Source: Candidatus Krumholzibacteriia bacterium
GTDB taxonomy: Bacteria; Krumholzibacteriota; Krumholzibacteriia; LZORAL124-64-63
DNA length: 64,000 nucleotides
Assembly (NCBI GenBank): GCA_016744705.1
Contig: JADGDU010000014.1
Coordinates: 22,820-86,819, forward strand
Reading direction: 5' to 3'
The position numbers were made by a program, and so were the translations under genes. The notes beneath the pieces are model-generated. The model was not told where the DNA came from, did no database searches, and saw nothing but the letters and a program-made list of their open reading frames with translations. This document shows, piece after piece, positions 21,828 to 52,123 of this stretch (position 1 is its first letter; each line of letters begins with the position of its first letter).

Positions 21828-21850
21828 TAGTAGAATTGAGGATGGTGTTT

Positions 21851-36184: not shown

Positions 36185-36709
36185 TTATTTTTGGCGAGAT
36201 TGGTGAAGGGCCATGACCTTGGCTTGGAATTCTGCTTGTACCAAGGGGTCTTCCAGGCGCAATTCATCCTCAACGGGGATTTCCGGGTTGGCCCGCATGT
36301 AGGCCTGGGCAAATAGGCCACGACCTTCGGGCAGGGATTCTCCATTTTCCTGAATGACGGGGACGCGGTACACACCACAACTGGGGCTGCCTTTTTTCAT
36401 AACAAAGCCACAGAGGGCCAGGGGAGCAAGGTCCTGAATTTTGTTCAGAGCCCAGCAATTCATGGATTGGGTCCAGTCTTTGCGGGTGTGGGTTCCGATC
36501 ATCTGGGGAGCGCTTATATCACCTTCCAGGTCTACTGTTTCGCGGGGAACTCCCATGCCCAATTCGCTTTCAGGGCAAACCGGGACCAACTCAAAATGCT
36601 CAGCCAGAGTTTCAGTCACATAACTGTTGCGCCGGTGGCCCCCATCGTACCGGACATTTTCACCCAACAGACAAGCACTGACACCGATGCGGATGATGGG
36701 TTTGCTCAC
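36185..36709 (-). CDS. DUF523 domain-containing protein
   Basis: IGVSACLLGENVRYDGGH...SPSCG is the DUF523 signature. Confidence 0.8.
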   Translation of the reverse strand: MSKPIIRIGVSACLLGENVRYDGGHRRNSYVTETLAEHFELVPVCPESELGMGVPRETVDLEGDISAPQMIGTHTRKDWTQSMNCWALNKIQDLAPLALCGFVMKKGSPSCGVYRVPVIQENGESLPEGRGLFAQAYMRANPEIPVEDELRLEDPLVQAEFQAKVMALHQSRQK

Positions 36710-37563: not shown

Positions 37564-37564
37564 G

Positions 37565-38608: not shown

Positions 38609-38623
38609 GGCGGTGGCGGCTCC

Positions 38624-39364
38624 TTATTCAACAGGTCGACAGGCCAATAGAGATTGGATGTCGGGATGGGGAGAAAGCAGCATCTTATCGCTTTCACCCT
38701 GATCCAAAATTCGACCGTTGTGGAGAATCACCAGATGATCAGCCAGTTCGAAAATGGGCTGGTATTGGTTGCCTGCCAGGATCAAAGTGGTTCCCTTGGC
38801 ACGCAGAGAAACCAATTCATCCTTAATTTTCCGGGCCCAGGAGTTGTCCATGGTAGATGTGGGTTCATCCATGAACAAGGCTTCAGGCTCAGGAATGGTG
38901 GCACGCAGGAAAGAAACAAACTTTTTCTGCCCCTGAGAGATGTCCACCGGTCTCTTTTTGGTATCGACAGAAAAGTCGTACCGCTGTAGCGCTGCTTCAA
39001 TTCTCTGTTTTCTCTCTTGGGGGCGCAGGTGGGGAAATTTGGCGGTTAATGGAAGGTCCAAGTTGGTGGCCAGGTCCATGTTGGCCCATAGGGCTGCATC
39101 CTGGAAAACAAAGCCAGTGCGGGTTTGCATTTGGCGTAACTGCCTCTCAGAGAACGAATCGAGATTGCAATCATCATACAAAACCTGTCCTCTGGTGGCG
39201 GGGATGAGCCCGGCGGCTGTCTTCAGTAAAACACTTAGGCCAGAGCCAGAATTCCCAAGGATGGCGGTGATTTTCCCGGGTTGCAGTTCCAGGTTGATGT
39301 CCTGAAGAACGGGCTGTCCGCCCAACTCTACGGCTACATTTTGCAATTCGATGAACACGCTCAC
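38624..39364 (-). CDS. ABC transporter ATP-binding protein (MlaF-like)
   Basis: Walker A GNSGSGLS. Signature SQGQKKFVS. Walker B LFMDEPTS. The GTG start overlaps the MlaE-like stop (GTGA). Confidence 0.85.
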   Translation of the reverse strand: MSVFIELQNVAVELGGQPVLQDINLELQPGKITAILGNSGSGLSVLLKTAAGLIPATRGQVLYDDCNLDSFSERQLRQMQTRTGFVFQDAALWANMDLATNLDLPLTAKFPHLRPQERKQRIEAALQRYDFSVDTKKRPVDISQGQKKFVSFLRATIPEPEALFMDEPTSTMDNSWARKIKDELVSLRAKGTTLILAGNQYQPIFELADHLVILHNGRILDQGESDKMLLSPHPDIQSLLACRPVE

Positions 39365-40140
39365 CCCAGAAGGAAAAGAACAGTGATGACGGTGCTGGCC
39401 AGAATGCACAGAGTCATGCTGATGCCCAGAGATTGGATGGTTTTTTGAGGCACTTCAGTGACGGCGCGCTGGACTTGAAAGCCGTAATAAGTGGCCACGG
39501 TGGATAGGATTATTCCAAACACAAAACTTTTCAGGAGAGAAGATAGCACATCGCCGGCGCTCATGACCATAACCAGATTTCCCAGGTAATCGCCAATGGG
39601 AAGGCCGTGAATGAGGGAGGCAATCCAGCAGGATCCCAACAACCCGAAGAGGTTGAAATAGAGATTGAGAAAGACCATGGCCACGGTCACGCCAATGACC
39701 CGGGGCGCAGCCAGGTGGTACAGGGGATTGATGCCGGCAGCCACGTAAGCTTCCACTTCGTGATCGACTACCATGTTGCCCAGTTCGGTTGTGATGGCAC
39801 TGCCTGAGCGGGCGGCAATAATCAGGGCGGTCAGCAACGGTCCCAATTCCCGGGTTATTACCAGAATCAGGATTTTGTAGGTGAGTTCGCTCTGGCCAAA
39901 TTTGGGCAAAAGAGAAACACCCTGGATGATGACAGCCGCACCAATGCCCAAAGAAATAACGGCCAGAATGGGTAAAGCTTCCACGCCGGTGAAATAAACT
40001 TGGGAGATGAGGACCGGTGAAGTGATTTTTCGACGAAACAATAAAGAGAGAGATTCTCGATGGAGTACGATGGCGTAGCCCAAGGCAGAGAGGATGTTGT
40101 TCGTGGCATGCCGCATGTTTCGGCCCAGTGTGTTTAACAT
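39361..40140 (-). CDS. ABC transporter permease (MlaE-like)
   Basis: About 259 aa. Five TM helices. RELGPLLTALIIAARSGSAITTELGNM is the MlaE family block. Confidence 0.85.
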   Translation of the reverse strand: MLNTLGRNMRHATNNILSALGYAIVLHRESLSLLFRRKITSPVLISQVYFTGVEALPILAVISLGIGAAVIIQGVSLLPKFGQSELTYKILILVITRELGPLLTALIIAARSGSAITTELGNMVVDHEVEAYVAAGINPLYHLAAPRVIGVTVAMVFLNLYFNLFGLLGSCWIASLIHGLPIGDYLGNLVMVMSAGDVLSSLLKSFVFGIILSTVATYYGFQVQRAVTEVPQKTIQSLGISMTLCILASTVITVLFLLG

Positions 40141-40205
40141 GGGAGAAACTATAAGGGATATCTGGGGGGCGGTCCAGTGGTGAAGAGGGCCAATGGCTGG
40201 GTATT

Positions 40206-41303
40206 TTAGGCTTTGGGAGCCCTCTTTTTAAACCGAGGAGAATTCCCCCACAATCCGTACCCAATTTTCTCGCCAATTCCAGCGATGCGTTTTTCCAGGC
40301 CCATGCGACTCTGCTCTGAGTTTTCGTCGAGACTGGGTTTACCGTCGTACAACTGATACGCTCGCCGGTGCTTGGGGTCCGTCACGTTGGGCATGATGAT
40401 GTTGGCTCCGGCCTGCAGCCCCAACTCCCGGCCCGTATCGCTTAAAGCCTGCAGGGCGGTGGTGGCGGCCATGTTGGCGTCGGGCAGAAGCAGGCGGGCG
40501 CAAGCCAGCATTTTGAGGCCCAATTGAAGTTGAGCGTCTTTGTTGAAGGTGTCCAGGTGGTGGGCTAACGGAGTGTCGCCGTGGGGAATGAAGGGGCCCA
40601 TGCCGATCATATCCACATCCAGTTCTTTGATGTAAAGCAAGTCGTCGGCAAGGTCGGCGTTGGTCTGGTCGGGTAAACCGATCATCACTCCTGTGCCCAC
40701 CTGGTAACCTTCGTTGCGCAAATCATCGAGGCATTGCAGGCGGGGGGCCCAAAGATGGTCTTCAGGATGATACTGGCGGTACAAATCCTGACGACTGGTT
40801 TCAAGCCGCAGCAAGTAGCGGTGGGCACCGGCTTGTCGCCACTGGCGAAGCACCTGGGGGCTTTGTTCACCAAGGGAAAGAGTGACGCCCAATTCACCAT
40901 TGGTGGCTTCGTGCAACTGGTTCAGGGCATCAGTGATATATTGGCTGTGGTTGTCGTTTTGGATCTCGCCCCCTTGCAACACCAATGAGCCATAATGGTT
41001 GTCGTGGGCCCAACGGGCGGCTTGCACAATCTCCTCTATGGAGAGGCGGAACCGGGGAACCTTGGGGTTTGATTTTCGGATGCCGCAGTAAAGGCAATCC
41101 TTTTGGCAGATGTTTGAAATTTCGATCAGGCCACGAAAGTAAACTACTGGCCCGACGTTTTTCTTTTTCACTTCATAGGCGGCGTGAAAAAGGGCTTCGT
41201 ATTCGTTTTCCTCGCTGATGTCCAGAAGGCGGATCAAATCGTCACGCTCGAGAGTCTGGCCCTGGGCAACATGTCCCAAAATGTCTTTGACCTGTTGGGT
41301 CAT
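40206..41303 (-). CDS. hydE: [FeFe]-hydrogenase H-cluster radical-SAM maturase HydE
   Basis: Cx3Cx2C radical-SAM motif CQKDCLYCG. Biotin-synthase-like architecture of about 365 aa. Operonic with hydF and hydG. Confidence 0.85.
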   Translation of the reverse strand: MTQQVKDILGHVAQGQTLERDDLIRLLDISEENEYEALFHAAYEVKKKNVGPVVYFRGLIEISNICQKDCLYCGIRKSNPKVPRFRLSIEEIVQAARWAHDNHYGSLVLQGGEIQNDNHSQYITDALNQLHEATNGELGVTLSLGEQSPQVLRQWRQAGAHRYLLRLETSRQDLYRQYHPEDHLWAPRLQCLDDLRNEGYQVGTGVMIGLPDQTNADLADDLLYIKELDVDMIGMGPFIPHGDTPLAHHLDTFNKDAQLQLGLKMLACARLLLPDANMAATTALQALSDTGRELGLQAGANIIMPNVTDPKHRRAYQLYDGKPSLDENSEQSRMGLEKRIAGIGEKIGYGLWGNSPRFKKRAPKA

Positions 41304-42523
41304 GATACCACCGAGGGCGATTCAAACGGAGCCATGGCCCGAGGCAGAATACCCAAACAAAAGGCAATGGCCAGTCCATAGTTGGTAGCCGGCACACCGG
41401 CTCGTCGGCAATGTCCCAGACGGCTTTGGATTTCCTGACGGTTCATGGTGCAGCCGCCGCAGTGGACCACCAGTTTATAAGGGGAAAGGTCGGTGGCAAA
41501 ATCGTGTCCCTGAACGGTGTCGAAGACCAAGGATCCGCCCACCGCTTCATTCAGCCAACGGGGGAGCTTGACGCGGCCGATGTCATCAGTCTCCACCGGG
41601 TGATGGCTACAGCTTTCGGCCACCAGGACCCGGTCGCCAGGTTGCAGGTTGGCAATGGCGCGAGCGCCGGCTACCTGAGATTCGAAATCGCCACGATGCC
41701 GAGCCATCAAGACCGAAAACCCAGTCATGGGGATGTCCTCGGGGACCATGGCGCTCACCTGAGCAAAAGCCTGGCTGTCGGTCACCACCAGAGCGGGCTT
41801 TTTCCGGAGATTGGCCAAAGCAGATTCCAGCTGAGTTTCTTTGACCACAAGGCAGCAGGAATCACCATCCAACAGATCGCGGATAGCGTTAACCTGGGGC
41901 AGAATGATTCGGCCCACCGGGGCTTCTTTGTCAATGGGAACCACCAAAATGGCTGTTTCTCCGGCGGGTACAAGGTCCCGTACCAGGGGCGGGGTTTTGG
42001 AGCGGCTCTGGGTGGCTGTATCGATAATGGCCAGCCGCAGATCATCAATGCCAGTGCCCCCCGTCACGGACGTGGCCACCCATTTCACTCCCAGCTCATC
42101 AAGCATTTTGGTCATGGCATCTGATGGTAATTCTTTGTCAGCCTGGTTGAGAACCACAATGACCGGGATGCGTCTTTCTTTCATTTCCTCCAGCAATTGC
42201 TCTTCGTGAGAGCCCCAGGCGTTGGTGGTCGTCACCAGCAACACCAACTCGCAACGATCAAGCATGGCCCGGGTTCGGTCCATGCGCAGTTTGCCCAGAT
42301 CACCGGTGTCATCAAGGCCTGCGGTGTCGATCAAAACCACAGGCCCGATGGGCTGCAACTCCATGGGCTTGCTCACCGGATCGGTGGTGGTGCCTGGAGT
42401 ATCGGAAACAATGGCTACATCCTGACGGGTCAGGGCGTTGACAAGGCTGCTTTTACCCACATTGCGCCGGCCATAAAGGCCAATGTGCAGGCGGAACCCG
42501 CGGGTTGCTGTTTGGCGTTTCAT
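41300..42523 (-). CDS. hydF: [FeFe]-hydrogenase H-cluster maturation GTPase HydF
   Basis: N-terminal GTPase (GRRNVGKSSL, DTAG). C-terminal cluster-binding CSHHP...HCGGC motif. Confidence 0.85.
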   Translation of the reverse strand: MKRQTATRGFRLHIGLYGRRNVGKSSLVNALTRQDVAIVSDTPGTTTDPVSKPMELQPIGPVVLIDTAGLDDTGDLGKLRMDRTRAMLDRCELVLLVTTTNAWGSHEEQLLEEMKERRIPVIVVLNQADKELPSDAMTKMLDELGVKWVATSVTGGTGIDDLRLAIIDTATQSRSKTPPLVRDLVPAGETAILVVPIDKEAPVGRIILPQVNAIRDLLDGDSCCLVVKETQLESALANLRKKPALVVTDSQAFAQVSAMVPEDIPMTGFSVLMARHRGDFESQVAGARAIANLQPGDRVLVAESCSHHPVETDDIGRVKLPRWLNEAVGGSLVFDTVQGHDFATDLSPYKLVVHCGGCTMNRQEIQSRLGHCRRAGVPATNYGLAIAFCLGILPRAMAPFESPSVVS

Positions 42524-42532
42524 GCATCGCTC

Positions 42533-43909
42533 CTAGCAGAAAACATCGCGACGGCCGGCACGGATCTTCTCCAGCATGACCTGAGCGCGGCGGCGAGGTT
42601 CGGGGTCCATGGTTTCCAGGGCGTTGGCGATGCTGAGCATACCGGCTTCCTGGGTTTCGGGTTGGGCGTAATCCATCAGATATTCCAGAAAACTGCTCAG
42701 GCCGTTGGGAGCGCAATGGGCTTTGATGTCGCCGGGTTTGGCCAGATCCATGAAGTCGGCTCCGGTGCGCCCGAGACGGTAGCAACCGGTGCAGAATGAT
42801 GGGATGTAACCCAGGCGGGCCACATCGGCCACCACTTCATCGAGAGAACGCACATCACCCAAGCTGAATTGTTCGGCGGTGTGTTTATCGGACGCAGAAT
42901 AGGCACCAGGATTGGTGCGGCTGCCGGCAGAAATTTGAGAGACACCGAGGGCAAAGGTTTCACGCCGAATGTCTGCGGTTTCCCGGGTGGACATGATGAT
43001 ACCTGTGTAGGGGACCATCAGCCGGAGAATGGCTACGATTTTGCGAAAGGCCAAATCAGACACCGGGTTGGGTGGGTTGCTGGCCAAATCGGCTCCGGTT
43101 GCGGGCTCCAGGCGCGGTACGCTGATGGTGTGTGGACCAAAACCGAATTCTTTTTCCAGGTGGCGAATGTGCTGGTGCAGGGCCAGCAGTTCAAATCGCC
43201 AATCAGCCAAGCCGAACAAGACACCAATGCCCACGTCATCAATACCTGCGGAGATGGCCCGATCCATGGCTTGCAGTCGCCAATCATAATCTGTTTTGGC
43301 CCCGCGCAGGTGCACCTTTGAATAAGTTTCACGATGGTAGGTTTCCTGGAAGATTTGGTAGGTGCCGATGTCGTGCTCTTTGAGCCGTTTGAAATCGGCT
43401 TCTTCCAGAGGAGCGACGTTTACGTTCACTCGGCGAATTTCTCCGCTGCCCCGTTTGACGGAGTACACGGTGTCGATGGCGCGTAAAATGTAATCGAAAC
43501 CATCGCGGGGGTAAGCTTCGCCCGCCACCAGAAGAATGCGTTTGTGACCTTCATCAACCAGAGCTGCGGTTTCGGAGGCAATCTCTTCCATGCTCAGGGC
43601 ACGGCGATTGAGGCCTCGGTTGCTGCTACGGAATGCACAGTAAGCGCAGTCATTTTTACAGAGATTGGAAACGTAAAGGGGGGTAAATAAGACCAAACGG
43701 TGGCCATAAATTTCCGCTTTGACATCGCGCGCTGCCCGGAAGAGTTCGCCCAGCAATTCAGGGTCACTAATATTGCAAAGAGCCGCTACGTCGTCGGCCT
43801 CCAGGCCTTCAAGCTTTCGGGCCCTGGCCAGGATTTCAGTAATATCGGATTCGCTCTTCTGTCCACCCCGTTGTAGGGATTTCTCGATGTTTCCTTCGTC
43901 GATTTTCAT
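42533..43909 (-). CDS. hydG: [FeFe]-hydrogenase H-cluster radical-SAM maturase HydG
   Basis: CKNDCAYCAF (Cx3Cx2C). ThiH-like core. C-terminal Cx2Cx22C (CTGC...KAHC). About 458 aa. Confidence 0.85.
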   Translation of the reverse strand: MKIDEGNIEKSLQRGGQKSESDITEILARARKLEGLEADDVAALCNISDPELLGELFRAARDVKAEIYGHRLVLFTPLYVSNLCKNDCAYCAFRSSNRGLNRRALSMEEIASETAALVDEGHKRILLVAGEAYPRDGFDYILRAIDTVYSVKRGSGEIRRVNVNVAPLEEADFKRLKEHDIGTYQIFQETYHRETYSKVHLRGAKTDYDWRLQAMDRAISAGIDDVGIGVLFGLADWRFELLALHQHIRHLEKEFGFGPHTISVPRLEPATGADLASNPPNPVSDLAFRKIVAILRLMVPYTGIIMSTRETADIRRETFALGVSQISAGSRTNPGAYSASDKHTAEQFSLGDVRSLDEVVADVARLGYIPSFCTGCYRLGRTGADFMDLAKPGDIKAHCAPNGLSSFLEYLMDYAQPETQEAGMLSIANALETMDPEPRRRAQVMLEKIRAGRRDVFC

Positions 43910-45075
43910 GAACTCTCTCCGCTGGGAACAGGTTTGTTTGAATGTCCGGTTCGGGACAAGGTGGCTGTGAAGGTTGTGCCCTGGTTTTCTTGGCTGGACA
44001 CGGTGACCCGGCCGCCGTTCAGATGCACCAGGCGCTGCATAATACTCAAACCCAGGCCACTGCCTTCAATGAGCCGGGTTTTGTCATTCTTTATACGTAC
44101 AAATTCGCCAAACAGGCGACCCACTTCTTCTTCGGTCATACCGATGCCGGTATCGCTGACACTGATAGTGACGTATTCCTCGTCGCTGTCCAACTTGATG
44201 AAAACCTGCCCACCATCGCTGTTGTATTTCACTGCGTTGGAAACCAGATTGTTGAGGATGATTTCGAGTTCGGAATAGACACCCTGCATGATAGTGCTGT
44301 TTGTGCATTCCGCTTCCAGGGAAATATTTCGACTTTGTGCTTGAGGTTGAAATGTTTCCATAACTTTTTCTACCAATTGAGCAGGGTCAACCTCAGTCAA
44401 AACCCGTTCTTTTTGGCGAGATTCAATGCGGGTCAAATCCAGCATATCGTAGATGAGTTTGCGCATGCCCTCGAGCCGTACCAGGCTGCGGCCGATGATG
44501 CGAGCGGTGGCCTCGGGGTTGTTGGCGGTGATGCCTTCATCAAGCAAACGAAGGTAGCCCTCCACGGCCCCCAGGGGCGCCTTCAATTCATGAGCCAAAA
44601 TCGAGAGGAACTCAAAACGCACCCGGTGTTTTTCCCCGGCCAGTTTGCGGGCCGTACGCTCCACCATCAAATGGCGGGACGCTTTCACCACCACTTCCTT
44701 CAACTCTTTGGGCGTGAAGGGCTTGGCCAGGAAGTCATAGGCGCCTTTTTTGGTGGCCTTGACGGCCATTTCCAGAGAGGCATAAGCCGTGATCATCACC
44801 ACCATGGTGGTGGATTTCTGGGCCTGCAACTCAGTCAGAATTTCCATACCTGTAACCCGGGGCATGCCATGGTCCAAAAGCACCAGATCAAAGTGATCCT
44901 GGGCCAAAATCTCTCTGGCCTCGAACCCATCTGTAGCCAACCGTATGTTCAAGGTGAAGGTGCCTTGGCCATGAGGTTCCGTGACAGTGAGGCCTTCCAG
45001 GGCCCGGGCCATGCCCGTGCGCATACCGACCTCATCGTCGGCAATTAAAACCTGTAGAACATGGTTGTCAGTCAT
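43906..45075 (-). CDS. REC-domain / histidine-kinase hybrid (receiver at the N-terminus, HisKA plus HATPase_c at the C-terminus), no output domain
   Basis: Start at the second ATG after AGGAGA. REC (LIADDE...LLDHGMP...AKPF). HisKA (LSILAHELKAPL). HATPase_c (GSGLGLSI). It overlaps hydG by 4 nt and the upstream sensor kinase stop by 8 nt. Confidence 0.8.
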   Translation of the reverse strand: MTDNHVLQVLIADDEVGMRTGMARALEGLTVTEPHGQGTFTLNIRLATDGFEAREILAQDHFDLVLLDHGMPRVTGMEILTELQAQKSTTMVVMITAYASLEMAVKATKKGAYDFLAKPFTPKELKEVVVKASRHLMVERTARKLAGEKHRVRFEFLSILAHELKAPLGAVEGYLRLLDEGITANNPEATARIIGRSLVRLEGMRKLIYDMLDLTRIESRQKERVLTEVDPAQLVEKVMETFQPQAQSRNISLEAECTNSTIMQGVYSELEIILNNLVSNAVKYNSDGGQVFIKLDSDEEYVTISVSDTGIGMTEEEVGRLFGEFVRIKNDKTRLIEGSGLGLSIMQRLVHLNGGRVTVSSQENQGTTFTATLSRTGHSNKPVPSGESS

Positions 45076-47095
45076 GACCATTCTCCTGTGCTTCCGGGTG
45101 CACATACTGAGGCAGAACAATGCTGAAAATGGTTCCCGTGGGACCACTCTTTTCATCGGTATTGGACTGCACGTTGATTTGGCCGCGATGCATTTTTACG
45201 ATGCCGTAACTGACGGCCAACCCCAAGCCAGTGCCTTTGCCTTGGCCTTTGGTGGTGAAGAAGGGTTCGAAAATTCGGCTCAGAATTTCTTCGGCTATAC
45301 CGCAGCCGGTATCAGCCACTTCGATCACCAAGGAATCTTCACTGGGGACGGTGACACTGATGCAGGTAGTGCCACCCTCTGGCATGGCGGCCTGGGCATT
45401 GTTCACGAGGTTGATGATAACCTGTTGCATCTGGGCCTGGTCCAGGTCGGCGCTGAGGTTTTCGTCATCCACTTTTAAGCAGATATTTTGGGTTGCCGGT
45501 GTGATGACACCGCGCAGACATTCCCGCAGAAAAGTCCCAATTTTTACCCGCTGCAATTCCGTTTTGTTCTCTCTGGAGAAATCAAGCAAACCGGAGACAA
45601 TGCCTTTGCAACGGTTGGCTTGTTCGGCGATGAGGGACAAATCGATGCCCAGCTTGGATTCGTGTCCGAATTCATCCTGAAGCAAGTGAGTGTAGAGCAG
45701 CACCACGCCCAGGGGGTTGTTCACTTCGTGAGCTATGCCGGCGGCCAACTGGCCCATGCTGGCCAGCCTTTCCGAGTGCATGAGCTGTTCCTGGGTTGTG
45801 GCCAATTCGGCGTTGGACGAATGAAGGTCGCCCACGGTGTTGCGCAGTTCGTCGATGACAAAGGGCAGACACATTTCGCTTTCGGCCATGCCCTTGTAGA
45901 TGGCCACGGCGTGTTGCCGGCAGGTGTCGTAACCGCAGGCGCGGCAATTCAATTCATCAGATGCCGTGATTTTTCCCAGACGGCGCAAGATGGCGTCAAT
46001 TTCGGCGTCATCAGGCTCGCGCAGTTTCAATTGGTCGGGTTCAAAGGACCGGCTCAGGTCCAGGTCATCAAGTTGGTTCATGTATTTGTACCAACTGCCT
46101 TTATTGCCAATGCGCTGGCGGTTGCCCGCATAGCGACTGATACGGGCACGGCGCCGGAAGAGGGGCTCGTCGGTGGTCATGCCCGCGCCCATGATGCAAC
46201 CTTTGCAGCATAGAATATCAAGCAATTCTGCATCCATATCACCAGAAGAAAATTCGCGCAGGGCTTCCGGGAAATCCTGACGGCCATCGGCAGTGACTAC
46301 ACTGCCGGTGGCCAGGTCTTCACTTAAGCCGGCAACCTGGACCATGCCTCGACTGAGGGGAAAAACGGCCCCCAGATTGGCGCGGGGGGCATCAAAATCT
46401 GCGGGTTTCACTTTGTTGGGATCCAGTTTCCTCCGTCGAATCAATTCATCCAGCTCATTGAAGGTGATGACGCAATCAATACGGCCATCTCCACTGGTGA
46501 ATGCAGCTTCGCCTTTTTTGGCCAGGCAAGGTCCGATAAATATAAGTTTGAGATCGGGACCATGCAGGTTACGCAGGGCACGGGCACTGGCGACCATGGG
46601 TGAGACCAGAGGCAACAGAGAAGAGCAAAGCTCAGGATGGTACCGTTGGACAAAAGTGACGATGGCAGGACACGAGGTGGCAATCCAGCGTTTGAGCGGG
46701 CCGTCTTCCACTAATTCGCGGGTGCGCTGGGCCACTAAATCTGCTCCAAAACCCACTTCGTGAAGAATGTGGAAGCCCAATTCTCTCAGCAGGCCGCCCA
46801 ATACTTTTTCATCAAAGTTGGTGAATTCGGCGGCAAAAGATGGGGCAATGGCCGCGGCCACCATGGTGTCGCCTGCTAAAAGGGTTTCAGCCATCTCCAG
46901 GGAATCGGCAGCCACTTTGGCTCCCTGGCTGCAAACCTGAACGCAGTTGCCGCAACCGATGCAGCGCTCGTGCATGACCATGGCCTGGCCATCTTCAATG
47001 CGAATGGCTTTGGCTGGGCATTCGCGTACACAGGTGAAACAGGTCCGGCATCGTTCGCCAATGGTCTGAACCAGAGTCACTTCTGAAGCTTTCAT
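45068..47095 (-). CDS. Sensory [FeFe]-hydrogenase-like H-cluster protein fused to a histidine kinase (2x[4Fe-4S] Fd, H-domain, Cx2Cx4Cx16C, HisKA, HATPase_c)
   Basis: Fd motifs [12 protein letters not shown] and [12 protein letters not shown]-cluster L1 (ATSCPAIV), L2 ([10 protein letters not shown]) and L3 ([12 protein letters not shown]). C384-x2-C-x4-C-x16-C409. H-box AHEVNNPL. N box NLVNNA. G boxes DTGCGI and GTGLGLA. Confidence 0.8.
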
Positions 47096-47748
47096 GCGCG
47101 GGCTTTCTCTTCAGTTTTAGCCGATGCGTAGAAGGCAACTCTCTCCAAAGACATCTGGATATCGTTGTTTTCTACGAAAACATGATTGGGTACCTGCAAA
47201 CGGATGGGAGTGAAGTTAAGGATGCTGCACACACCGGCGGCAACCAAACGTTCCGCTGCGGCTTGGGCTTCTTCAGGGGGCAGAGCCAGGATGGCAATAC
47301 AGACATGGGCTTCCCGCACCTGTTCTTCAAGGTTGGCGGCATCCAAAACCGGAACATCGTTGAGGTGTTTGCCAACCATATGTGGGTTGACTTCAAAAAC
47401 AGCCTTCATGTTCAGGTGGGGTTGGGTGGACTGAAAGTAGTGCAAAAGAGCTTGTCCCAAATGTCCGGCTCCCAACAGAACCACAGAAGTGGCCTGGGCG
47501 GTGCCCAGACAATTGACCACAGCCTGGGCCAATTCGGTGATGGAATAACCATGCTGGGGAGTACCGCTGGTGGGCACATTCATAAGGTCTTGTCGCACTT
47601 GAGATGCAGAAACACCAGCCATGACGGCCAGATCTCGTGAAAAAATCCGCTGGATTCCTTCTACACTCAATTGCTTGAGAACCCGGCGGTAAATGCTCAA
47701 ACGACCCACGGTGCGGGGATTGATCATGTATTTGGAATGTGTAACCAT
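47092..47748 (-). CDS. rex: Redox-sensing transcriptional repressor Rex
   Basis: ATG at 47748 after AGGAG. Winged helix (RLSIYRRVL). Rossmann fold (VVLLGAGHLGQALL). Its stop overlaps the downstream start (ATGA). Confidence 0.85.
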   Translation of the reverse strand: MVTHSKYMINPRTVGRLSIYRRVLKQLSVEGIQRIFSRDLAVMAGVSASQVRQDLMNVPTSGTPQHGYSITELAQAVVNCLGTAQATSVVLLGAGHLGQALLHYFQSTQPHLNMKAVFEVNPHMVGKHLNDVPVLDAANLEEQVREAHVCIAILALPPEEAQAAAERLVAAGVCSILNFTPIRLQVPNHVFVENNDIQMSLERVAFYASAKTEEKARA

Positions 47749-47771
47749 GGTGGACTCCTGTTTACCACTGA

Positions 47772-47788
47772 TGTTAATAAAATAACAA
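47772..47788. promoter_or_regulatory. Candidate Rex operator (TGTTAATAAAATAACAA, one mismatch from the inner 16 positions of the Rex-box consensus TTGTTAA-N4-TTAACAA) 24-40 nt upstream of the rex start
   Basis: Inverted repeat TGTTA-N6-TAACA read in the sequence just upstream of the rex operon. Confidence 0.35.
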
Positions 47789-48149
47789 GCATTCAACGCC
47801 ACAAAGGTAATCATTGAATTTTGAGGGTCAAGAATATTTTGTTATTTTTTTGACAGCCAAGATGCAAAGATTTTCAAGTTGTGTATTCCATTGTCAAATA
47901 GCCAGTTATGCAATTGTTTTGAAGTAATGCTAAAAATTGAAATCCGAGAAGCGTAATAATTTAATTGCACAATGGAAAGATGGTTTGGAGGCCAAATGGC
48001 CAAGGGTCTGGAGTCATGATTTATAGGGATGAATGTGCGGATGAGGGCAAGATTAACGCTAAGGACTCTGGGAAAAACCAAAGAACTGTCGTATTATTAA
48101 CGGGATATTTTTTTTTATTACAGGTCACTTAAAGAAGGGATCCTATTCC

Positions 48150-50261
48150 ATGTCTTCCAGCCTCATGCCAACTCCAAGACTGGATCAGGGCAGCCCTGAA
48201 ACCATGCGCCAAAATATCCGCAAATATTTCACTGAAACCTGGGAAATTTATGAAGAGTTATTTGAGGTTTTGGACTGTGACGAGGCATATTTTGCCAAAG
48301 CGGATCCACTGAGGCATCCCCTTATCTTCTATTTGGGGCATACAGCCACTTTTTTCATCAATAAAATGGTCTTGGCCAAGGTCATCAGTGAGCGGGTCAA
48401 CCCTCTGTTAGAATCAATCTTTGCCGTGGGCGTGGATGAAATGAGCTGGGATGATCTCAGCGATAAGAACTACGAGTGGCCAACCGTAGCCGAAGCCTGG
48501 GAATACCGAAAACAAGCCAGAGCGGTGGTGGAACAAGCCATTGACGAGATTCCTTTGAATATGCCCATCCAATGGAATGACCCCTTTTGGGTGATCATTA
48601 TGGGTATTGAGCATGAACGCATCCATTTGGAGACCAGTTCGGTTCTGATGCGCCAATTGCCCTTGGAAATGGTCCGCTCGGTGGAGAGATTTCCCTTGTG
48701 CGAAAACTCAGGGGATGCTCCCGCCAATGAAATGCTGGTTGTGGAGGAGGGCGTGGTTGTCCAGGGGCTGCCAGATAACCACTCGTTTTATGGGTGGGAT
48801 AATGAATATGGGCATTTGAAATCAGAGGTTTCTGCATTCAAGGCTACTCGCTATCTGGTCAGTAATGATGAATTTGAGGGCTTTGTGAAGGCCGGCGGAT
48901 ACCAAACGGAAAAATATTGGACGGAAGAGGGGTGGGCCTGGAAAATTTACAGTAAGGCAGAATTTCCCACCTTTTGGGTCAAAACCGGCGAAAAATCCTA
49001 TAAATTGCGTTGTTTGGCAGAAGAAATCGATATGCCTAAGGATTGGCCTGCCGAGGTCAACTATCTGGAAGCCAAGGCTTTCTGTAGTTGGAAAGCAGAA
49101 ACGACTGGCCAACCGGTGCGTTTACCGACGGAAGCAGAATGGTACCGCATCCTGGAATCGTCAACTCTGGATGGGAAGGAGCATTGGACAGGCCACAAGG
49201 CCAACATCAATTTGGCTCAAGGAGCTTCATCCTGCCCAGTGAACGAAAACAAGCAGGGCGATTTTTTCGACGTGGTGGGCAATGTCTGGCAATGGACTGA
49301 AACACCGATCAGCGGATTCCCCGGCTTCAAGGTTCACCCTCTGTATGATGACTTTTCCACTCCCACTTTTGATACCAGGCATAACATTCTCAAGGGTGGG
49401 TCCTGGATCAGCGCAGGCAATGAAGCCAATCCTTTTTCCCGTTACGCCTTCAGAAGGCATTTTTTCCAGCATGCGGGATTTCGTTATATCGAATCGGAGG
49501 CAGAAGTGACCATCAGCGATGACATCTATGAAACTGACGAATTAGTCGGGCAGTATTGTGAGTTCCATTTCGGCCAGGAATATTACGGAGTCCCTAATTT
49601 CCCCAAAGCAACAGCAGAAATTTGTGGGGAATTGATGAAGGGCAGAAGCTTCAAGCGGGCTTTGGATCTGGGCTGCGCCACCGGTAGAAGCACCTTTGAG
49701 TTGGCTCGGTTCTTTGACCATGTCACGGGCATCGATTTCTCCGCCCGCTTTATCCGCGTGGGGCATGACATGCAGAATAAAGGGCGTATCAAGTATGCCA
49801 TCCCCAGTGAAGGCCAACTGGTTTCCTATCATGAAAAAAACCTGGAGGAATTTGGCCTGGTGGGCACCGAAAATAAGGTGGAATTCTGGCAAGGCGATGC
49901 TCACAATTTGAAGCCGCAGTTTGATAATTACGACTTGGTTCTGGCCTGTAATTTGGTGGACCGGCTTTATAGCCCTGCCAAATTTCTGGAGCACATCGCG
50001 GGCCGCATCAACAAGGGTGGCCTGTTGGTTCTGATGTCCCCTTACACTTGGTTGGAAGAATTCACTCCCCTGGAAAACTGGCTGGGCGGGCGAAAAGTTG
50101 ATGGTGAAAACCGTACCACCCTTGATGGTTTTCACAGAGAACTGGAACCAGAATTTCGCTTATTGGGCGAGCCTCGGGATGTGCCCTTTGTCATCCGTGA
50201 AACCGCCCGAAAATTCCAGCACACCCTCAGTCAAATGACGGTATGGGAGAAACTGAAGTGA
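48150..50261 (+). CDS. ovoA: 5-histidylcysteine sulfoxide synthase OvoA (ovothiol biosynthesis): DinB-like, FGE-sulfatase and methyltransferase domains
   Basis: 703 aa. HxxxHxE iron motif (HERIHLE). FGE-sulfatase-like middle domain. C-terminal SAM methyltransferase motif I LDLGCATGRS. Confidence 0.85.
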   Translation: MSSSLMPTPRLDQGSPETMRQNIRKYFTETWEIYEELFEVLDCDEAYFAKADPLRHPLIFYLGHTATFFINKMVLAKVISERVNPLLESIFAVGVDEMSWDDLSDKNYEWPTVAEAWEYRKQARAVVEQAIDEIPLNMPIQWNDPFWVIIMGIEHERIHLETSSVLMRQLPLEMVRSVERFPLCENSGDAPANEMLVVEEGVVVQGLPDNHSFYGWDNEYGHLKSEVSAFKATRYLVSNDEFEGFVKAGGYQTEKYWTEEGWAWKIYSKAEFPTFWVKTGEKSYKLRCLAEEIDMPKDWPAEVNYLEAKAFCSWKAETTGQPVRLPTEAEWYRILESSTLDGKEHWTGHKANINLAQGASSCPVNENKQGDFFDVVGNVWQWTETPISGFPGFKVHPLYDDFSTPTFDTRHNILKGGSWISAGNEANPFSRYAFRRHFFQHAGFRYIESEAEVTISDDIYETDELVGQYCEFHFGQEYYGVPNFPKATAEICGELMKGRSFKRALDLGCATGRSTFELARFFDHVTGIDFSARFIRVGHDMQNKGRIKYAIPSEGQLVSYHEKNLEEFGLVGTENKVEFWQGDAHNLKPQFDNYDLVLACNLVDRLYSPAKFLEHIAGRINKGGLLVLMSPYTWLEEFTPLENWLGGRKVDGENRTTLDGFHRELEPEFRLLGEPRDVPFVIRETARKFQHTLSQMTVWEKLK

Positions 50262-52123
50262 TGTATACTGTATACAGGGCTTTTTTGCTGGTCCTTCTTC
50301 TCTCTCTAATAGGTTGTGGTGAAAGAGTTTTAGAGGGAACTCGTGAAATCAGTGAAGTCATGTCCCGTGCAGAAGATGGCTGGAACGCCGGTGACTTGAA
50401 CGAATACATGCAGTGTTATCTGCATTCTGAGAATCTGCGTTTTGCAAGCGATGACGGCTTCAGTTTTGGTTGGCATCAGGTGTTGGAGAACTACCAAAGC
50501 TCCTATCCTGACCAGCGATCCATGGGACATTTGTCCTTCTATGATCTGGACATTGAATTGTTATCCGAGGACGCAGCCCTGGTGGTGGGGCGCTGGCGTT
50601 TGGACCGAAAATCAGATCAGCCCCACGGTGTTTTCACTTTGGTGATGCGCAGGGGGGCTGCCGGTTGGCGCATCGTCCATGATCACACCAGTGTTGGTGA
50701 TGGCACCCTGAGTGCCGCCGAAGCGTCCATCACAAAAGCAGGATTGCTGGACCAGGTGGAGGCCCTGACCAGTGGGGCCATGAACGGTCGTTTGCCGGGC
50801 ACCGAAGGTTACCGATTGGCGGCGGAGTTAGCCGCTGAGCACTTTGCGGATCTGGGTCTGCAGCCGGGTGGGGATAAGGGCTTTTTTCAAACCCTGCCCA
50901 TTGAAGCCAACGAAGTCATTGGCCAACCAAATTTTGGAATTTCCGGCGCTCCGGACTCATACACTTTGGGTGAAGATTATGTCTTCCGGGGATTCACCGG
51001 CGGGGGCGATTATTCTGCACCGGTGGTCTTCTGTGGTTACGGCCTCAGCTTCCCCGACCGCGGCTATGATGACTATGCGGATGTGGATGTGGAGGGCAAA
51101 ATCGTTCTGGTCTTAAAACAGGGCCCAGGTTGGGCGCTGCCAGATGATGGAGGCTGGCAGGGCATGTCCAACCCACGCCCCAAGGCTCGCACGGCTGCTG
51201 CTCATGGGGCACTTGCCGTTCTGATGATTGCCAAGCCCAATGATAAAAATCCGCAACCTCTCATTGGCAGCGTCATGCATGGCGAAGGCCAGCACTTGAA
51301 GGATGTTCCCCAGCTGCAGATCAGCCAGGCTGTGGCGGCCGAACTTCTGAAAAATTCAGACTTGAGCCTTTCGGAGCTCCAGTCCCGCATCGATGAAACG
51401 CAATCCCCTTCCTCACGACCTCTGGAATTGACTGTGGATCTGAAAGTGGAAACCCGCTACCAGCCAGCAGCAGAAACCTGGAATGTGGTGGGTATTTTGC
51501 CGGGCAGTGATCCGGACCTCAGCACTGAGTTCCTGGTTCTGGGGGCCCACCTGGATCACGTAGGGGGCCAGGCTGAGAAGGCACTTTTTCCGGGTGCCAA
51601 CGACAATGCCTCCGGATCGGCAGCAGTTATGGAAATTGCGGAAGCTTTTGTGCGGGCGGGGCAAGCGCCTCCCAGGACTCTGGTCTTTGTGCTGTTCGCG
51701 GGTGAGGAGCAGGGTTTGATTGGCAGTCAATATTATGCAGATAATCCCGTACGCCCTCTGGAGTCCACCGTGGCCATGATGAACTTTGACTGCATCGCCC
51801 ACGGCGACAGTATTCGGGTGGGGGGCGGTAAGTCGGCACCTCTGCTTTGGGGACGCACTCTGCAGTTGGATGCGGTGGCTGAGAACCTTATGATTCCCGG
51901 GACCTGGAGAGGGGGCGGCGCCGATGCGACACCCTTTTTTAACCAGGGATTACCCACCTTGTATTTTGTGACCACCAATACCTATACCCATTTGCATCGT
52001 ACAAGCGACAGGGTGCAAACTCTCAATGGCGATTTATTTCAAGCCATCACTCGGTTGGGATACCGGACAGCCTCCTGGATAGCTGATGGAGGGTACCAGA
52101 GGGAAATGTTGATCCGCCAATAG
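50261..52123 (+). CDS. Lipoprotein: SnoaL/NTF2-like N-domain fused to an M28-family aminopeptidase (PA domain plus M28)
   Basis: Lipobox LSLIGC|GER. DUF4440/SnoaL-like segment (AEDGWNAGDLNEYMQCY...WRIVHDH). M28 motifs HLDHVG, NDNASGSAAVMEIAE and FAGEEQGLIGSQYY. Confidence 0.8.
   Translation: MYTVYRAFLLVLLLSLIGCGERVLEGTREISEVMSRAEDGWNAGDLNEYMQCYLHSENLRFASDDGFSFGWHQVLENYQSSYPDQRSMGHLSFYDLDIELLSEDAALVVGRWRLDRKSDQPHGVFTLVMRRGAAGWRIVHDHTSVGDGTLSAAEASITKAGLLDQVEALTSGAMNGRLPGTEGYRLAAELAAEHFADLGLQPGGDKGFFQTLPIEANEVIGQPNFGISGAPDSYTLGEDYVFRGFTGGGDYSAPVVFCGYGLSFPDRGYDDYADVDVEGKIVLVLKQGPGWALPDDGGWQGMSNPRPKARTAAAHGALAVLMIAKPNDKNPQPLIGSVMHGEGQHLKDVPQLQISQAVAAELLKNSDLSLSELQSRIDETQSPSSRPLELTVDLKVETRYQPAAETWNVVGILPGSDPDLSTEFLVLGAHLDHVGGQAEKALFPGANDNASGSAAVMEIAEAFVRAGQAPPRTLVFVLFAGEEQGLIGSQYYADNPVRPLESTVAMMNFDCIAHGDSIRVGGGKSAPLLWGRTLQLDAVAENLMIPGTWRGGGADATPFFNQGLPTLYFVTTNTYTHLHRTSDRVQTLNGDLFQAITRLGYRTASWIADGGYQREMLIRQ

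What the first reader, a model, noticed from the sequence alone, without database searches (positions are those of the whole stretch)
45068..47095. H-cluster ([FeFe]-hydrogenase) domain fused directly to a histidine kinase: a putative H2-sensing kinase
The 675-aa product has four parts in order: two ferredoxin-type 4Fe-4S motifs, a complete H-cluster domain, a four-Cys motif, and a complete kinase. The H-cluster domain carries L1 ATSCPAIV (C142), L2 PCLAKKGE (C190) and L3 [12 protein letters not shown] (C296/C300). These align position for position with TSCCPxW, MPCxxKxxE and ExMACxxGCxxGG of catalytic enzymes. The kinase has H-box AHEVNNPL, the N box, and G1/G2 boxes. There is no PAS domain, no transmembrane segment and no catalytic-hydrogenase accessory domain. 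From memory, known sensory hydrogenases (HydS, group C) are H-domain-plus-PAS proteins that act through separate signalling partners. A single-polypeptide H-cluster kinase would transduce H2 directly. I cannot tell from memory whether this fusion has been described.
Basis: partly seen in the sequence, partly recalled or inferred. Interest (0 to 1): 0.85.

Follow-up and report, generated by a model that had tools for sequence, protein, structure and literature searches.

The report
Hydrogen-sensor domain fused to a histidine kinase
This gene joins a hydrogenase-like sensing domain to a signalling kinase in one protein. It is a genuine but already catalogued, widespread and untested type of putative bacterial hydrogen sensor, and could show how such sensors pass on their signal.

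Summary
The ORF is real: 675 aa with no interruption, on the minus strand (45068-47095). Its domain order is two [4Fe-4S] motifs, an [FeFe]-hydrogenase H-domain, a Cx2Cx4Cx16C cluster motif, then a complete HisKA/HATPase_c kinase. It has no PAS domain and no membrane segment.

The invariant L3 cysteines are C297 and C300 (CxGC, one residue shorter than in catalytic enzymes), not C296/C300. The proton-relay cysteine is replaced by Ser141.

The gene sits in a tight operon: Rex, sensor kinase, REC-kinase, HydG, HydF, HydE. Full-length relatives occur in at least 590 species genomes across many phyla. Most lie directly after bifurcating hydCBA and are followed by a stand-alone REC and the REC-kinase.

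The sensor module is closest to PAS-type group C HydS (37-40% identity) and far from catalytic HydA (25-28%). The last cluster cysteine (C409) begins one continuous predicted helix that carries the phospho-acceptor His456. That spacing is 47 residues in 118 of 120 homologues; the two exceptions differ by exactly 7.

The fusion is not new. A 2024 Hydrogenedentota study describes group C3 "BfuT" proteins with a histidine-kinase domain in the same gene arrangement. I found no biochemical study of it. Verdict: a new member of a known putative kind, moderately interesting as an experimental handle.

The parts
45068..47095 (-). H-cluster sensor histidine kinase, 675 aa (here HcHK). Its ATG overlaps the rex stop codon (ATGA).
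   Evidence: ORF and translation; Pfam domains; 120 collinear homologues.
46919..47059 (-). N-terminal ferredoxin-like domain with two [4Fe-4S] motifs (C16, C19, C22, C26 and C45, C48, C51, C55).
   Evidence: Fer4_10, Fer4_9 and Fer4_7 hits at residues 13-59. Seven of the eight cysteines are invariant and C16 is conserved in at least 90% of 120 homologues.
46184..46861 (-). H-domain, residues 79-304. Inferred cluster ligands are C142, C190, C297 and C300. Ser141 replaces the proton-relay Cys, G188 replaces CpI M353 and L295 replaces M497.
   Evidence: Fe_hyd_lg_C E 3e-39; residue-by-residue alignments to TmHydA and CpI; family conservation; Foldseek matches to [FeFe] hydrogenases, target-normalised TM-score up to 0.69.
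45863..45952 (-). C-terminal four-cysteine motif C384-x2-C387-x4-C392-x16-C409, a putative [4Fe-4S] site.
   Evidence: PF04060 hit at residues 382-411. All four cysteines are invariant. The spacing is the same as reported for M2e and M2f HydS (PMC8163306).
45668..45868 (-). One continuous predicted helix, residues 410-476. It is a coiled-coil linker that runs into DHp helix 1 and carries His456.
   Evidence: AlphaFold2 model. C409-to-H456 spacing is 47 in 118 of 120 homologues, 40 and 54 in the other two. Leucines recur every 7 residues at 417, 424, 431 and 438.
45569..45757 (-). HisKA (DHp) domain with H-box AHEVNNPL (His456).
   Evidence: Pfam E 8e-13. H456, E457, N459, N460 and P461 are invariant. 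Best solved matches are FixL-type and ZraS kinase cores.
45107..45442 (-). HATPase_c catalytic domain with N box (N562, N566), G1 box (D595, G597, G599), F box and G2 box (G619-L626).
   Evidence: Pfam E 5e-25; these residues are invariant.
47092..47814 (-). Rex-type redox-sensing (NADH/NAD+) transcriptional repressor, first gene of the operon. The true start may be later; orthologues are called at 218 aa.
   Evidence: Pfam Put_DNA-bind_N plus CoA_binding; NCBIfam Rex 202 bits against a cutoff of 126. Rex is in the locus in 41 of 60 related loci with room to see it.
43906..45075 (-). REC-HisKA-HATPase_c protein (receiver followed by a second kinase). Its start overlaps the end of HcHK by 8 nt. 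It is the likely phospho-acceptor of HcHK.
   Evidence: Pfam. The sequence shows the acidic pocket, phospho-Asp, Thr and Lys of a receiver, plus H, N, G1 and G2 boxes. The receiver is most like NtrC1 receivers. An orthologue lies directly downstream in 69 of 72 loci.
42533..43909 (-). HydG, radical-SAM H-cluster maturase.
   Evidence: NCBIfam TIGR03955, 492.5 bits against a cutoff of 312; Pfam Radical_SAM plus BATS.
41300..42523 (-). HydF, H-cluster maturation GTPase and scaffold.
   Evidence: NCBIfam TIGR03918, 530 bits against a cutoff of 326; Pfam HydF_dimer and HydF_tetramer.
40206..41303 (-). HydE, radical-SAM H-cluster maturase.
   Evidence: NCBIfam TIGR03956, 334 bits against a cutoff of 255.

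Best explanation
The gene encodes a soluble cytoplasmic sensor histidine kinase, presumably dimeric like other kinases of this class. Its input module is a putative sensory (group C-type) [FeFe]-hydrogenase.

Shown by sequence and comparison:
- The cassette is two [4Fe-4S] motifs, an H-domain and a Cx2Cx4Cx16C motif, the same as in PAS-type HydS.
- All four H-cluster cysteines and the key second-sphere residues are kept.
- The fast proton-transfer pathway of catalytic enzymes is dismantled.
- HydG, HydF and HydE are co-transcribed, so the 2Fe subcluster can be installed.
- Where HydS carries a PAS domain, this protein continues from the last cluster cysteine (C409) straight into a coiled-coil helix. 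That helix becomes DHp helix 1 and carries His456.
- The helix length is fixed in heptad units across the family.

Inferred mechanism:
1. H2 is bound and split slowly at the H-cluster.
2. The resulting redox or conformational change in the H-domain and C-terminal cluster domain is passed along the coiled coil as a rotation or piston movement, as in PAS-linked FixL/NtrB-type kinases.
3. This shifts the balance between kinase and phosphatase activity.
4. Phosphate passes from His456 to the NtrC-like receiver of the REC-kinase encoded next. In most relatives a stand-alone REC is also present.
5. The REC-kinase relays to an unidentified output.
6. Together with Rex, which senses NADH/NAD+, the system tunes H2 metabolism and fermentative redox balance. 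In most relatives the regulated target is presumably the adjacent bifurcating HydABC. In this window's lineage hydCBA is not nearby and the operon contains only the sensor genes and the maturases.
For: Domain content and order.

Equivalences to CpI from HMMER alignments:
- C142 = C300, C190 = C355, C297 = C499, C300 = C503
- K193 = K358, P85/S86 = P231/S232, F245 = F417
- All are invariant in 120 homologues, except F245 (119 of 120) and S86 (at least 90%).

Sensory-type substitutions:
- S141 replaces C299, G188 replaces M353, L295 replaces M497.
- R124 replaces E279, L161 replaces S319, and there is no residue opposite R286.
- This matches what is reported for TmHydS and TamHydS (PMC10055695; PMC8163306).

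Other lines of evidence:
- The Cx2Cx4Cx16C spacing is identical to that of M2e and M2f enzymes.
- HydG, HydF, HydE and Rex pass curated NCBIfam cutoffs. The six genes overlap or are 9 nt apart.
- The protein is 37% identical to a PAS-type HydS over residues 3-411, and homology stops at the last cluster cysteine. It is 28% identical to a HydA.
- In a rough NJ tree the kinase-type sensor modules group together (74 of 100 bootstraps), next to PAS-type sequences and away from A3 HydA.
- The AlphaFold2 model (mean pLDDT 84.6) has a single helix over residues 410-476.
- C409-to-H456 spacing is 47 in 118 of 120 homologues, otherwise 40 or 54.

Synteny over 80 species loci:
- REC-kinase directly downstream: 69 of 72
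- HydA within 1 kb upstream: 58 of 68
- Stand-alone REC adjacent: 67 of 80
- Rex in the locus: 41 of 60

The receiver of the REC-kinase is most like NtrC-family receivers, and the HcHK kinase core is AtoS/ZraS/NtrB-like.
Against: - No member of the kinase-fused family has been studied biochemically in the literature I could search. H2 sensing is still only 'putative' even for PAS-type HydS.
[quoted passage not shown] The authors take this as evidence against a redox role for that cluster in signalling (PMC13104023). The coupling may therefore be structural rather than redox.
- The L3 loop is one residue shorter than in any enzyme shown to bind an H-cluster. Whether CxGC supports the cubane-2Fe bridge is untested.
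- No DNA-binding response regulator and no catalytic hydrogenase were found among the larger ORFs scanned in the 64-kb window. Some ORFs were not scanned. The output and the regulated target in this organism are unknown.
- No Rex operator was found near the operon.
Confidence: 0.7

Rival explanations
1. It is a general redox-poise sensor rather than an H2 sensor. The surface-exposed N-terminal [4Fe-4S] pair exchanges electrons with ferredoxin. The kinase then reports the reduction state of the Fe-S chain, and the H-cluster at most equilibrates that chain with H2/H+.
For: - The N-terminal dicluster domain is invariant.
- In TamHydS the N-terminal clusters are the main electron route and are indispensable.
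- The operon begins with Rex, another redox sensor.
Against: - Conserving an H-cluster site and co-transcribing three dedicated maturases would be needless for a ferredoxin sensor.
- Most relatives sit immediately after hydCBA.
- The two readings are not exclusive. An H-cluster wired to ferredoxin would report H2 relative to the ferredoxin pool.
Confidence: 0.15
2. It is a regulatory subunit ('BfuT') bound to the bifurcating HydABC complex. It modulates the enzyme directly rather than acting as a free-standing two-component sensor.
For: - The 2024 study names it as a T subunit of BfuABC clusters.
- It lies within 1 kb downstream of hydA in 58 of 68 loci.
Against: - It has a complete kinase with invariant H, N, G1, F and G2 boxes.
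- A receiver-containing partner follows in 69 of 72 loci.
- In this window and in L001, L003, L008 and L032 it occurs without adjacent hydCBA.
Confidence: 0.08
3. It is an Fe-S-only protein (Nar1/NARF-like, or an O2/NO-sensitive cluster sensor). The H-domain binds a cubane but never receives the 2Fe subcluster.
For: - L1 and L3 deviate from the published signatures. The 2024 authors could hardly find P1-P3 in some group C proteins that carry a HATPase_c domain.
- The CxGC spacing is ferredoxin-like.
Against: - The residues that hold the 2Fe subcluster's ligands in CpI are retained and invariant or nearly so: K193 for K358, P85/S86 for P231/S232, F245 for F417, and C300 for the bridging C503.
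- hydG, hydF and hydE are in the operon and score above equivalog cutoffs.
- TmHydS and TamHydS, which carry similar substitutions, do bind a functional H-cluster.
Confidence: 0.05

Closest known systems
Kinase-domain group C3 [FeFe]-hydrogenase 'BfuT' of sub-type V BfuABC clusters (Hydrogenedentota; HydDB reference WP_006928132.1; the Caldithrix abyssi cluster is reported to have the same organisation). In silico description only (PMC11406978).
   Same: - Same architecture and same canonical position downstream of hydA.
- My loci from Hydrogenedentota (L005, L017, L020 and others) are 53-54% identical to the window protein.
- Bacteroidales loci show the reported extra PAS-type bfuT upstream.
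   Different: - In this window the gene is not next to hydCBA and has no stand-alone REC. It sits between rex and a REC-kinase, followed by hydG, hydF and hydE.
- The paper treats it as a hydrogenase subunit. In the passages I searched it does not mention response regulators, the heptad-fixed linker or the CxGC motif.
- I could not run the HydDB classifier or obtain WP_006928132.1, so the match rests on architecture and synteny.
Thermotoga maritima HydS (group C, M2f): the characterised putative sensory [FeFe]-hydrogenase.
   Same: - Two N-terminal [4Fe-4S] clusters, an H-domain and a C-terminal Cx2Cx4Cx16C cluster.
- The proton-relay Cys is absent (A131 in TmHydS, S141 here).
- The M353 position is Gly in both.
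- PAS-type relatives from my loci are 37-40% identical over the sensor module.
   Different: - TmHydS ends in a PAS domain and relies on separate partners. Here a coiled coil and a full kinase replace the PAS domain.
- The M497 position is Ser in TmHydS and Leu here.
- L3 is CxGC here, against CxxGC in the PAS-type relatives I could inspect.
Thermoanaerobacter mathranii HydS (group D, M2e).
   Same: - Same three Fe-S and H modules, with no PAS domain.
- The M497 position is Leu in both.
[quoted passage not shown]
   Different: - TamHydS has no fused output domain.
- Its M353 position is Ser, said to be Ser or Thr as a conserved M2e trait, whereas this family has an invariant Gly.
Regulatory [NiFe]-hydrogenase HoxBC with the kinase HoxJ and regulator HoxA of Ralstonia eutropha (HydDB group 2b).
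   Same: Works in the same way in outline: a slow, sensor-grade hydrogenase controls a histidine kinase that governs hydrogenase expression (cited in PMC5707799; PMC5037454).
   Different: - The metal site and fold are unrelated ([NiFe] versus [FeFe]).
- Sensor and kinase are separate proteins coupled through a PAS-like region of HoxJ. Here they are one polypeptide.
FixL/NtrB-type (HPK4) PAS-linked kinases, including the engineered LOV-FixL chimera YF1 (PDB 4gcz).
   Same: These are the best solved matches for residues 417-647 (E 1e-28). A sensor module is joined to the DHp by a coiled coil.
   Different: The input is an H-cluster and Fe-S module instead of a PAS, haem or flavin domain.

Membership tests
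[FeFe]-hydrogenase H-domain (H-cluster-binding) | Fe_hyd_lg_C profile match above the curated threshold, and the hydrogenase fold | tested here: met
   135.6 bits against a cutoff of 22.1, with the full profile covered. Foldseek matches the first ~430 residues to DdH, CpI, CbA5H and HydABC HydA, E down to 3.5e-20 and target-normalised TM-score up to 0.69.
[FeFe]-hydrogenase H-domain (H-cluster-binding) | Four cysteines ligating [4Fe-4S]H and bridging to the 2Fe site (CpI C300, C355, C499, C503) | tested here: met
   C142, C190, C297 and C300 are invariant in 120 homologues and align to the CpI and TmHydA ligands. The last pair is Cx2C instead of Cx3C.
[FeFe]-hydrogenase H-domain (H-cluster-binding) | Canonical L1-L3 signatures TSCCPxW, MPCxxKxxE and ExMACxxGCxxGG | tested here: not met
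   L1 is TSCP (S141 in place of the first Cys). L2 is GPCxAKKxE. L3 is [DE]VL[C/A]CxGCxxG with a one-residue deletion. These deviations are of the kind reported for sensory enzymes.
[FeFe]-hydrogenase H-domain (H-cluster-binding) | HydE, HydF and HydG maturases available | tested here: met
   All three lie in the same operon and score above NCBIfam equivalog cutoffs.
[FeFe]-hydrogenase H-domain (H-cluster-binding) | Bound H-cluster (FTIR CO/CN bands) and H2/H+ turnover | not testable with these tools
   Requires purified, matured protein.
Putative sensory [FeFe]-hydrogenase, group C (HydS, M2f) | Two N-terminal [4Fe-4S] motifs plus a C-terminal Cx2Cx4Cx16C motif | tested here: met
   motif as defined in PMC8163306.
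Putative sensory [FeFe]-hydrogenase, group C (HydS, M2f) | Loss of the proton-relay Cys299 and of other pathway residues; M353 and M497 replaced | tested here: met
   S141, R124 (for E279), L161 (for S319), G188 and L295. The family never has Cys at position 141.
Putative sensory [FeFe]-hydrogenase, group C (HydS, M2f) | PAS domain after the C-terminal cluster | tested here: not met
   No PAS hit. Residues 410-476 form one helix leading into the DHp. PAS-type comparators do give PAS hits. The protein is therefore not M2f in the strict modular sense, but belongs to the kinase-domain subtype that PMC11406978 files under C3.
Putative sensory [FeFe]-hydrogenase, group C (HydS, M2f) | Sensor module clusters with HydS rather than with catalytic group A | tested here: met
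   37% identity (E 2e-84) to a PAS-type HydS, against 28% to HydA. Mean identity is 40% to PAS-type and 25% to A3 HydA. The NJ tree is only rough: bootstrap support is 65-84 for the joint clades.
Putative sensory [FeFe]-hydrogenase, group C (HydS, M2f) | HydDB classifier assignment to C1, C2 or C3 | not tested
The assignment is inferred from PMC11406978.
Putative sensory [FeFe]-hydrogenase, group C (HydS, M2f) | Genomic linkage to a catalytic (bifurcating) hydrogenase and to regulatory genes | tested here: inconclusive
   Across the family, HydA lies within 1 kb upstream in 58 of 68 loci. In this window no hydrogenase structural gene was found among the ORFs scanned. The rest of the genome was not available.
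Group D (M2e, TamHydS-type) | Fer4-H-FeS protein with no further domain; M353 position Ser or Thr | tested here: not met
   A full kinase follows the C-terminal cluster, and the M353 position is an invariant Gly.
Class I HisKA histidine kinase (NtrB/AtoS/ZraS/FixL-like) | H-box His plus N, G1, F and G2 boxes; DHp and CA fold | tested here: met
   H456, N562/N566, D595/G597/G599, F609/P611/F612 and G619-L626 are invariant. Pfam. ZraS cytoplasmic domain, target-normalised TM-score 0.73. NCBIfam AtoS 196 bits over residues 430-663, below that equivalog's cutoff.
Class I HisKA histidine kinase (NtrB/AtoS/ZraS/FixL-like) | Autophosphorylation and phosphotransfer to a cognate receiver | not testable with these tools
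   A receiver-containing gene directly downstream in 69 of 72 loci is circumstantial only.

The most novel reading that the evidence does not exclude
In this lineage the sensor kinase has been separated from hydCBA. It is transcribed only with Rex, a REC-kinase and the three maturases.

If the genome has no catalytic [FeFe]-hydrogenase, the organism would build an H-cluster purely to sense H2. H2 made by neighbours would then act as an external signal rather than a metabolite the cell itself turns over.

Separately, the heptad-locked helix from C409 to His456 would make this protein the first system in which signalling by a sensory [FeFe]-hydrogenase can be read directly, as autophosphorylation.
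Probability: 0.15. Interest if true: 0.7.

Novelty: new member of a known kind. Interest (0 to 1): 0.45.

Why it matters
How putative sensory [FeFe]-hydrogenases (groups C and D) pass on an H2 signal is still open. [quoted passage not shown] It calls for identifying the interaction partners (PMC13104023).

In the kinase-fused form the partner is built in. Output can be measured as autophosphorylation and as phosphotransfer to the receiver-kinase encoded next door. The rigid, heptad-quantised linker also predicts which insertions and deletions should invert or abolish signalling.

The family is widespread in anaerobic lineages that are mostly uncultured. It usually sits beside the bifurcating hydrogenase, so it is probably a common way for fermenters to tune H2 production to H2 partial pressure.

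For this particular window the value is as a clean, compact example, not as a discovery.

Tried and rejected
- **Rex operator.** I searched for TTGTGAAnnnnTTCACAA with up to 3 mismatches. There were only two matches in the window, neither near the operon, and fewer than expected by chance.
- **Promoter and terminator scan of 36000-48300.** Counts were at chance level. One sigma-70-like site at 47897-47870 (minus strand) lies upstream of rex but carries little weight.
- **Reference sequences.** I tried to obtain TmHydS, TamHydS and HydDB sequences from paper supplements for a proper phylogeny. None were held. Greening 2016 and Zheng 2014 were not in the library.
- **First bootstrap tree** timed out. 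I replaced it with a faster NJ tree on Kimura distances, which is only rough.
- **Pfam scan of all 150 representatives** exceeded the size limit. I scanned every second one instead.
Considered and rejected. BLAST's ungapped alignment to one PAS-type HydS suggests it. However, position 296 is Ala in 10 homologues and Phe, Tyr, Leu or Met in the wider kinase- and EBP-fused clade, while C297 is invariant and lies 4 residues after the conserved Asp/Glu, as C499 does in CpI.
- **Two genes or a frameshift:** rejected.
- **NuoG/NarB-type protein:** rejected. No such Pfam hits, and all structural matches are [FeFe]-hydrogenases.

Full report
**Observation**

The window holds a single ATG-started ORF of 675 codons at 45068-47095 on the minus strand. 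Its ATG overlaps the stop codon of the upstream gene (ATGA).

Pfam finds these domains, in order:
- a 4Fe-4S dicluster domain, residues 13-59
- Fe_hyd_lg_C, 79-304 (E 3e-39, full profile)
- the PF04060 'FeS' motif, 382-411
- HisKA, 447-509
- HATPase_c, 552-663

No PAS domain is detected. The most hydrophobic 19-residue stretch averages 1.38 on the Kyte-Doolittle scale, so no membrane helix is predicted. The 120 best homologues are 649-689 aa long and collinear over 95-100% of the query. The fusion is therefore not an assembly or frameshift artefact.

**Is the H-domain an H-cluster site?**

HMMER alignments to TmHydA and CpI give these equivalences:

| Window residue | CpI residue |
|---|---|
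| C142 | C300 |
| C190 | C355 |
| C297 | C499 |
| C300 | C503 |
| K193 | K358 |
| P85/S86 | P231/S232 |
| F245 | F417 |

In a 120-sequence alignment spanning 53-85% identity these residues are invariant, except F245 (119 of 120) and S86 (at least 90%). So are all eight ferredoxin-type cysteines apart from C16, which is conserved in at least 90%.

- Position 296 is C in 108, A in 10, S in 1 and G in 1, whereas C297 is invariant. In the wider clade of kinase- and sigma-54-activator-fused relatives, position 296 is Phe, Tyr, Leu or Met. L3 is therefore [DE]-V-L-x-C-x-G-C, one residue shorter than the ExMACxxGC of catalytic enzymes and of most ~570-590-aa relatives, the length class of the PAS-type forms.
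- L1 keeps only the ligating cysteine.

The proton-relay position (CpI C299) is Ser141 and is never Cys in the family. E279, S319 and R286 of the CpI proton pathway are also replaced or absent. M353 is an invariant Gly and M497 an almost invariant Leu. These are the kinds of changes reported for the putative sensory enzymes TmHydS (A131, G177, S267) and TamHydS (PMC10055695; PMC8163306).

The C-terminal motif is C384-x2-C387-x4-C392-x16-C409, the same spacing given for the M2e and M2f subclasses.

The AlphaFold2 model has mean pLDDT 84.6, above 90 through most of the H-domain. Its first ~430 residues match solved [FeFe]-hydrogenases and its C-terminus matches the ZraS kinase core. No solved structure covers a sensory hydrogenase or this fusion.

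**Surroundings**

Six genes on the minus strand overlap or are separated by at most 9 nt:
1. Rex (NCBIfam 202 bits, cutoff 126)
2. the sensor kinase
3. a REC-HisKA-HATPase_c protein
4. HydG (492 bits, cutoff 312)
5. HydF (530 bits, cutoff 326)
6. HydE (334 bits, cutoff 255)

The REC-kinase has an intact receiver pocket and intact kinase boxes. Its receiver is most like NtrC1 receivers. That fits a phosphodonor with an AtoS/ZraS/NtrB-type core, which the sensor kinase has.

No hydrogenase structural gene and no DNA-binding response regulator turned up among the window ORFs scanned. Not every ORF was scanned.

**Relatives and synteny**

They include Planctomycetota, Hydrogenedentota, Krumholzibacteriia, Fermentibacteria, Lentisphaerae, Myxococcota, Bacteroidales, Marinimicrobia, Acidobacteriota, Thermoleophilia and others.

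Across the best 80 loci:

| Feature | Loci |
|---|---|
| REC-kinase directly downstream | 69 of 72 |
| Stand-alone REC adjacent | 67 of 80 |
| A3-type HydA within 1 kb upstream | 58 of 68 |
| Rex in the locus | 41 of 60 |
| Maturase(s) in the locus | 25 of 54 |

The canonical arrangement is Rex-HydC-HydB-HydA-sensor kinase-REC-REC-kinase, sometimes followed by HydE, HydG and HydF.

The window and its closest relatives (L001 at 82%, L008 at 74%) form a minority variant: Rex-sensor kinase-REC-kinase-HydG-HydF-HydE, with no hydCBA and no stand-alone REC. L003 (64%) is the same but lacks Rex.

**Placement**

The protein is 37% identical (E 2e-84) to a PAS-type HydS over residues 3-411. That HydS is followed by a SpoIIE/PP2C phosphatase gene. 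Homology ends exactly after the last cluster cysteine. Identity to a neighbouring HydA is 28%.

In a rough NJ tree of sensor modules the kinase-type sequences group together (74 of 100 bootstraps). They sit next to the PAS-type sequences and are well separated from A3 HydA.

Against 1.84 billion 50%-identity cluster representatives, the sensor module has 936 relatives at E ≤ 1e-30. Of 75 sampled from the best 150, 20 carry HisKA plus HATPase_c, about 19 carry PAS and 8 carry a sigma-54 activator domain. The same sensor cassette is thus joined to several different outputs. The kinase is one of the common ones.

**Mechanism**

Shown:
- Residues 410-476 are predicted as one helix that starts immediately after C409 and carries His456.
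- The C409-to-H456 distance is 47 residues in 118 of 120 homologues, and 40 or 54 in the other two. It varies only by whole heptads.
- Leu417, 424, 431 and 438 form a continuous heptad stripe.

Inferred: the C-terminal cluster domain takes the place that a PAS domain occupies in FixL/NtrB-type kinases. It transmits a change in the H-domain through the coiled coil to the DHp, switching between kinase and phosphatase activity. Phosphate then goes to the NtrC-like receiver of the REC-kinase and onward to an unknown output. Rex adds an NADH/NAD+ input.

[quoted passage not shown] The authors argue against a redox role for it in signalling. The coupling may therefore be conformational.

The rival readings cannot be excluded without experiments, but fit the data less well. 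They are a ferredoxin-pool redox sensor, a bound regulatory subunit of HydABC, and an Fe-S-only protein.

**Comparison with what is known, and novelty**

- HydDB (2016) lists putative sensory [FeFe] subgroups C1 'histidine kinase-linked', C2 and C3.
- A 2024 Hydrogenedentota study reports group C3 'BfuT' proteins with a histidine-kinase domain downstream of bfuA. It gives a HydDB best hit with the same domain (WP_006928132.1) and says the Caldithrix abyssi cluster has the same organisation. It also notes Bacteroidota clusters with an additional bfuT upstream.
- I see both arrangements in the loci of this family. One locus, L017, comes from a genome used as the example in that paper.
- The fusion has therefore been described in silico, and NCBI annotates it generically.
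- I found no biochemical work on it. Reviews and recent experimental papers still discuss only PAS-type or domain-less sensory enzymes.

This window is a new member of a known, putative kind, in a less common operon context.

**Verdict**

The functional interpretation is well supported by context but untested. The novelty is modest. The main value is as an experimental handle on the open question of how sensory [FeFe]-hydrogenases signal.

Noticed in passing
P0160, P0167, P0174, P0176, P0179, P0202, P0210, P0222, P0225, P0230: The same sensor cassette (two [4Fe-4S] motifs, H-domain, Cx2Cx4Cx16C) also occurs fused directly to a sigma-54 enhancer-binding AAA+ domain. Of 75 sampled representatives, 8 have Sigma54_activat and 6 of these also have HTH_8. 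This would be a one-component H2-responsive transcription activator. One literature search found no description of it.
   Followed up: partly
L007:19777-21369; also L063 near 908-1999 and L074 near 591-1703: A third sensory-type architecture: an N-terminal RsbW-like HATPase_c_2 domain, two [4Fe-4S] motifs, a partial Fe_hyd_lg_C match and the FeS motif. It is only 20-26% identical to the kinase type. It may be the 'group C1 with HATPase_C' of PMC11406978, in which P1-P3 could hardly be found.
   Followed up: partly
L069:3361-5247 (minus strand): A Bacteroidales HydS-like protein with a long C-terminal extension and a SpoIIE phosphatase gene next to it. Pfam gave no PAS hit at E ≤ 0.001. It lies upstream of hydCBA and reads 'FYHGGCIVGPG' at L3. 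It therefore lacks the first L3 cysteine (the CpI C499 equivalent) and may not bind a normal H-cluster.
   Followed up: no
window 48150-50261 (+): Divergently transcribed from the operon is an OvoA-like protein (DinB_2, FGE-sulfatase and a SAM methyltransferase). From memory, this is the architecture of ovothiol 5-histidylcysteine sulfoxide synthase. An M28 peptidase follows at 50243-52123. Both neighbours are conserved in L001.
   Followed up: no
window 25993-27900 (+); also 16916-19945 (-) and 21836-24190 (+): Three large proteins end in FlgD_ig or Por_Secre_tail domains, which suggests type IX secretion and an organism of the FCB group. One is an MtrC/MtrF-like multihaem cytochrome, one a PGA_cap protein with a PKD domain, and one a CotH kinase with a lamin-tail domain. 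A secreted multihaem cytochrome with a T9SS tail is unusual.
   Followed up: no
window 32203-36096 (-); window 227-1267 (+): A 1297-aa hybrid kinase (Reg_prop beta-propellers, PAS, HisKA, HATPase_c, REC) lies 4 kb downstream of the operon. A second Reg_prop ORF sits near the window start. No link to the hydrogen sensor was found.
   Followed up: no
window 36185-40140 (-): Directly downstream of hydE are genes for MlaE, an ABC ATPase, an MlaD-like protein, a TPR protein and a 2-thiouracil desulfurase. The order is conserved in L001. It is unclear whether they belong to the same transcript; the gap after hydE is about 66 nt.
   Followed up: no
P0036: A 374-aa fragment 100% identical to the C-terminal 55% of the window protein exists on a 1.8-kb ENA metagenome contig. 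No full-length identical sequence appeared among the listed hits; the closest is 85% identical.
   Followed up: no
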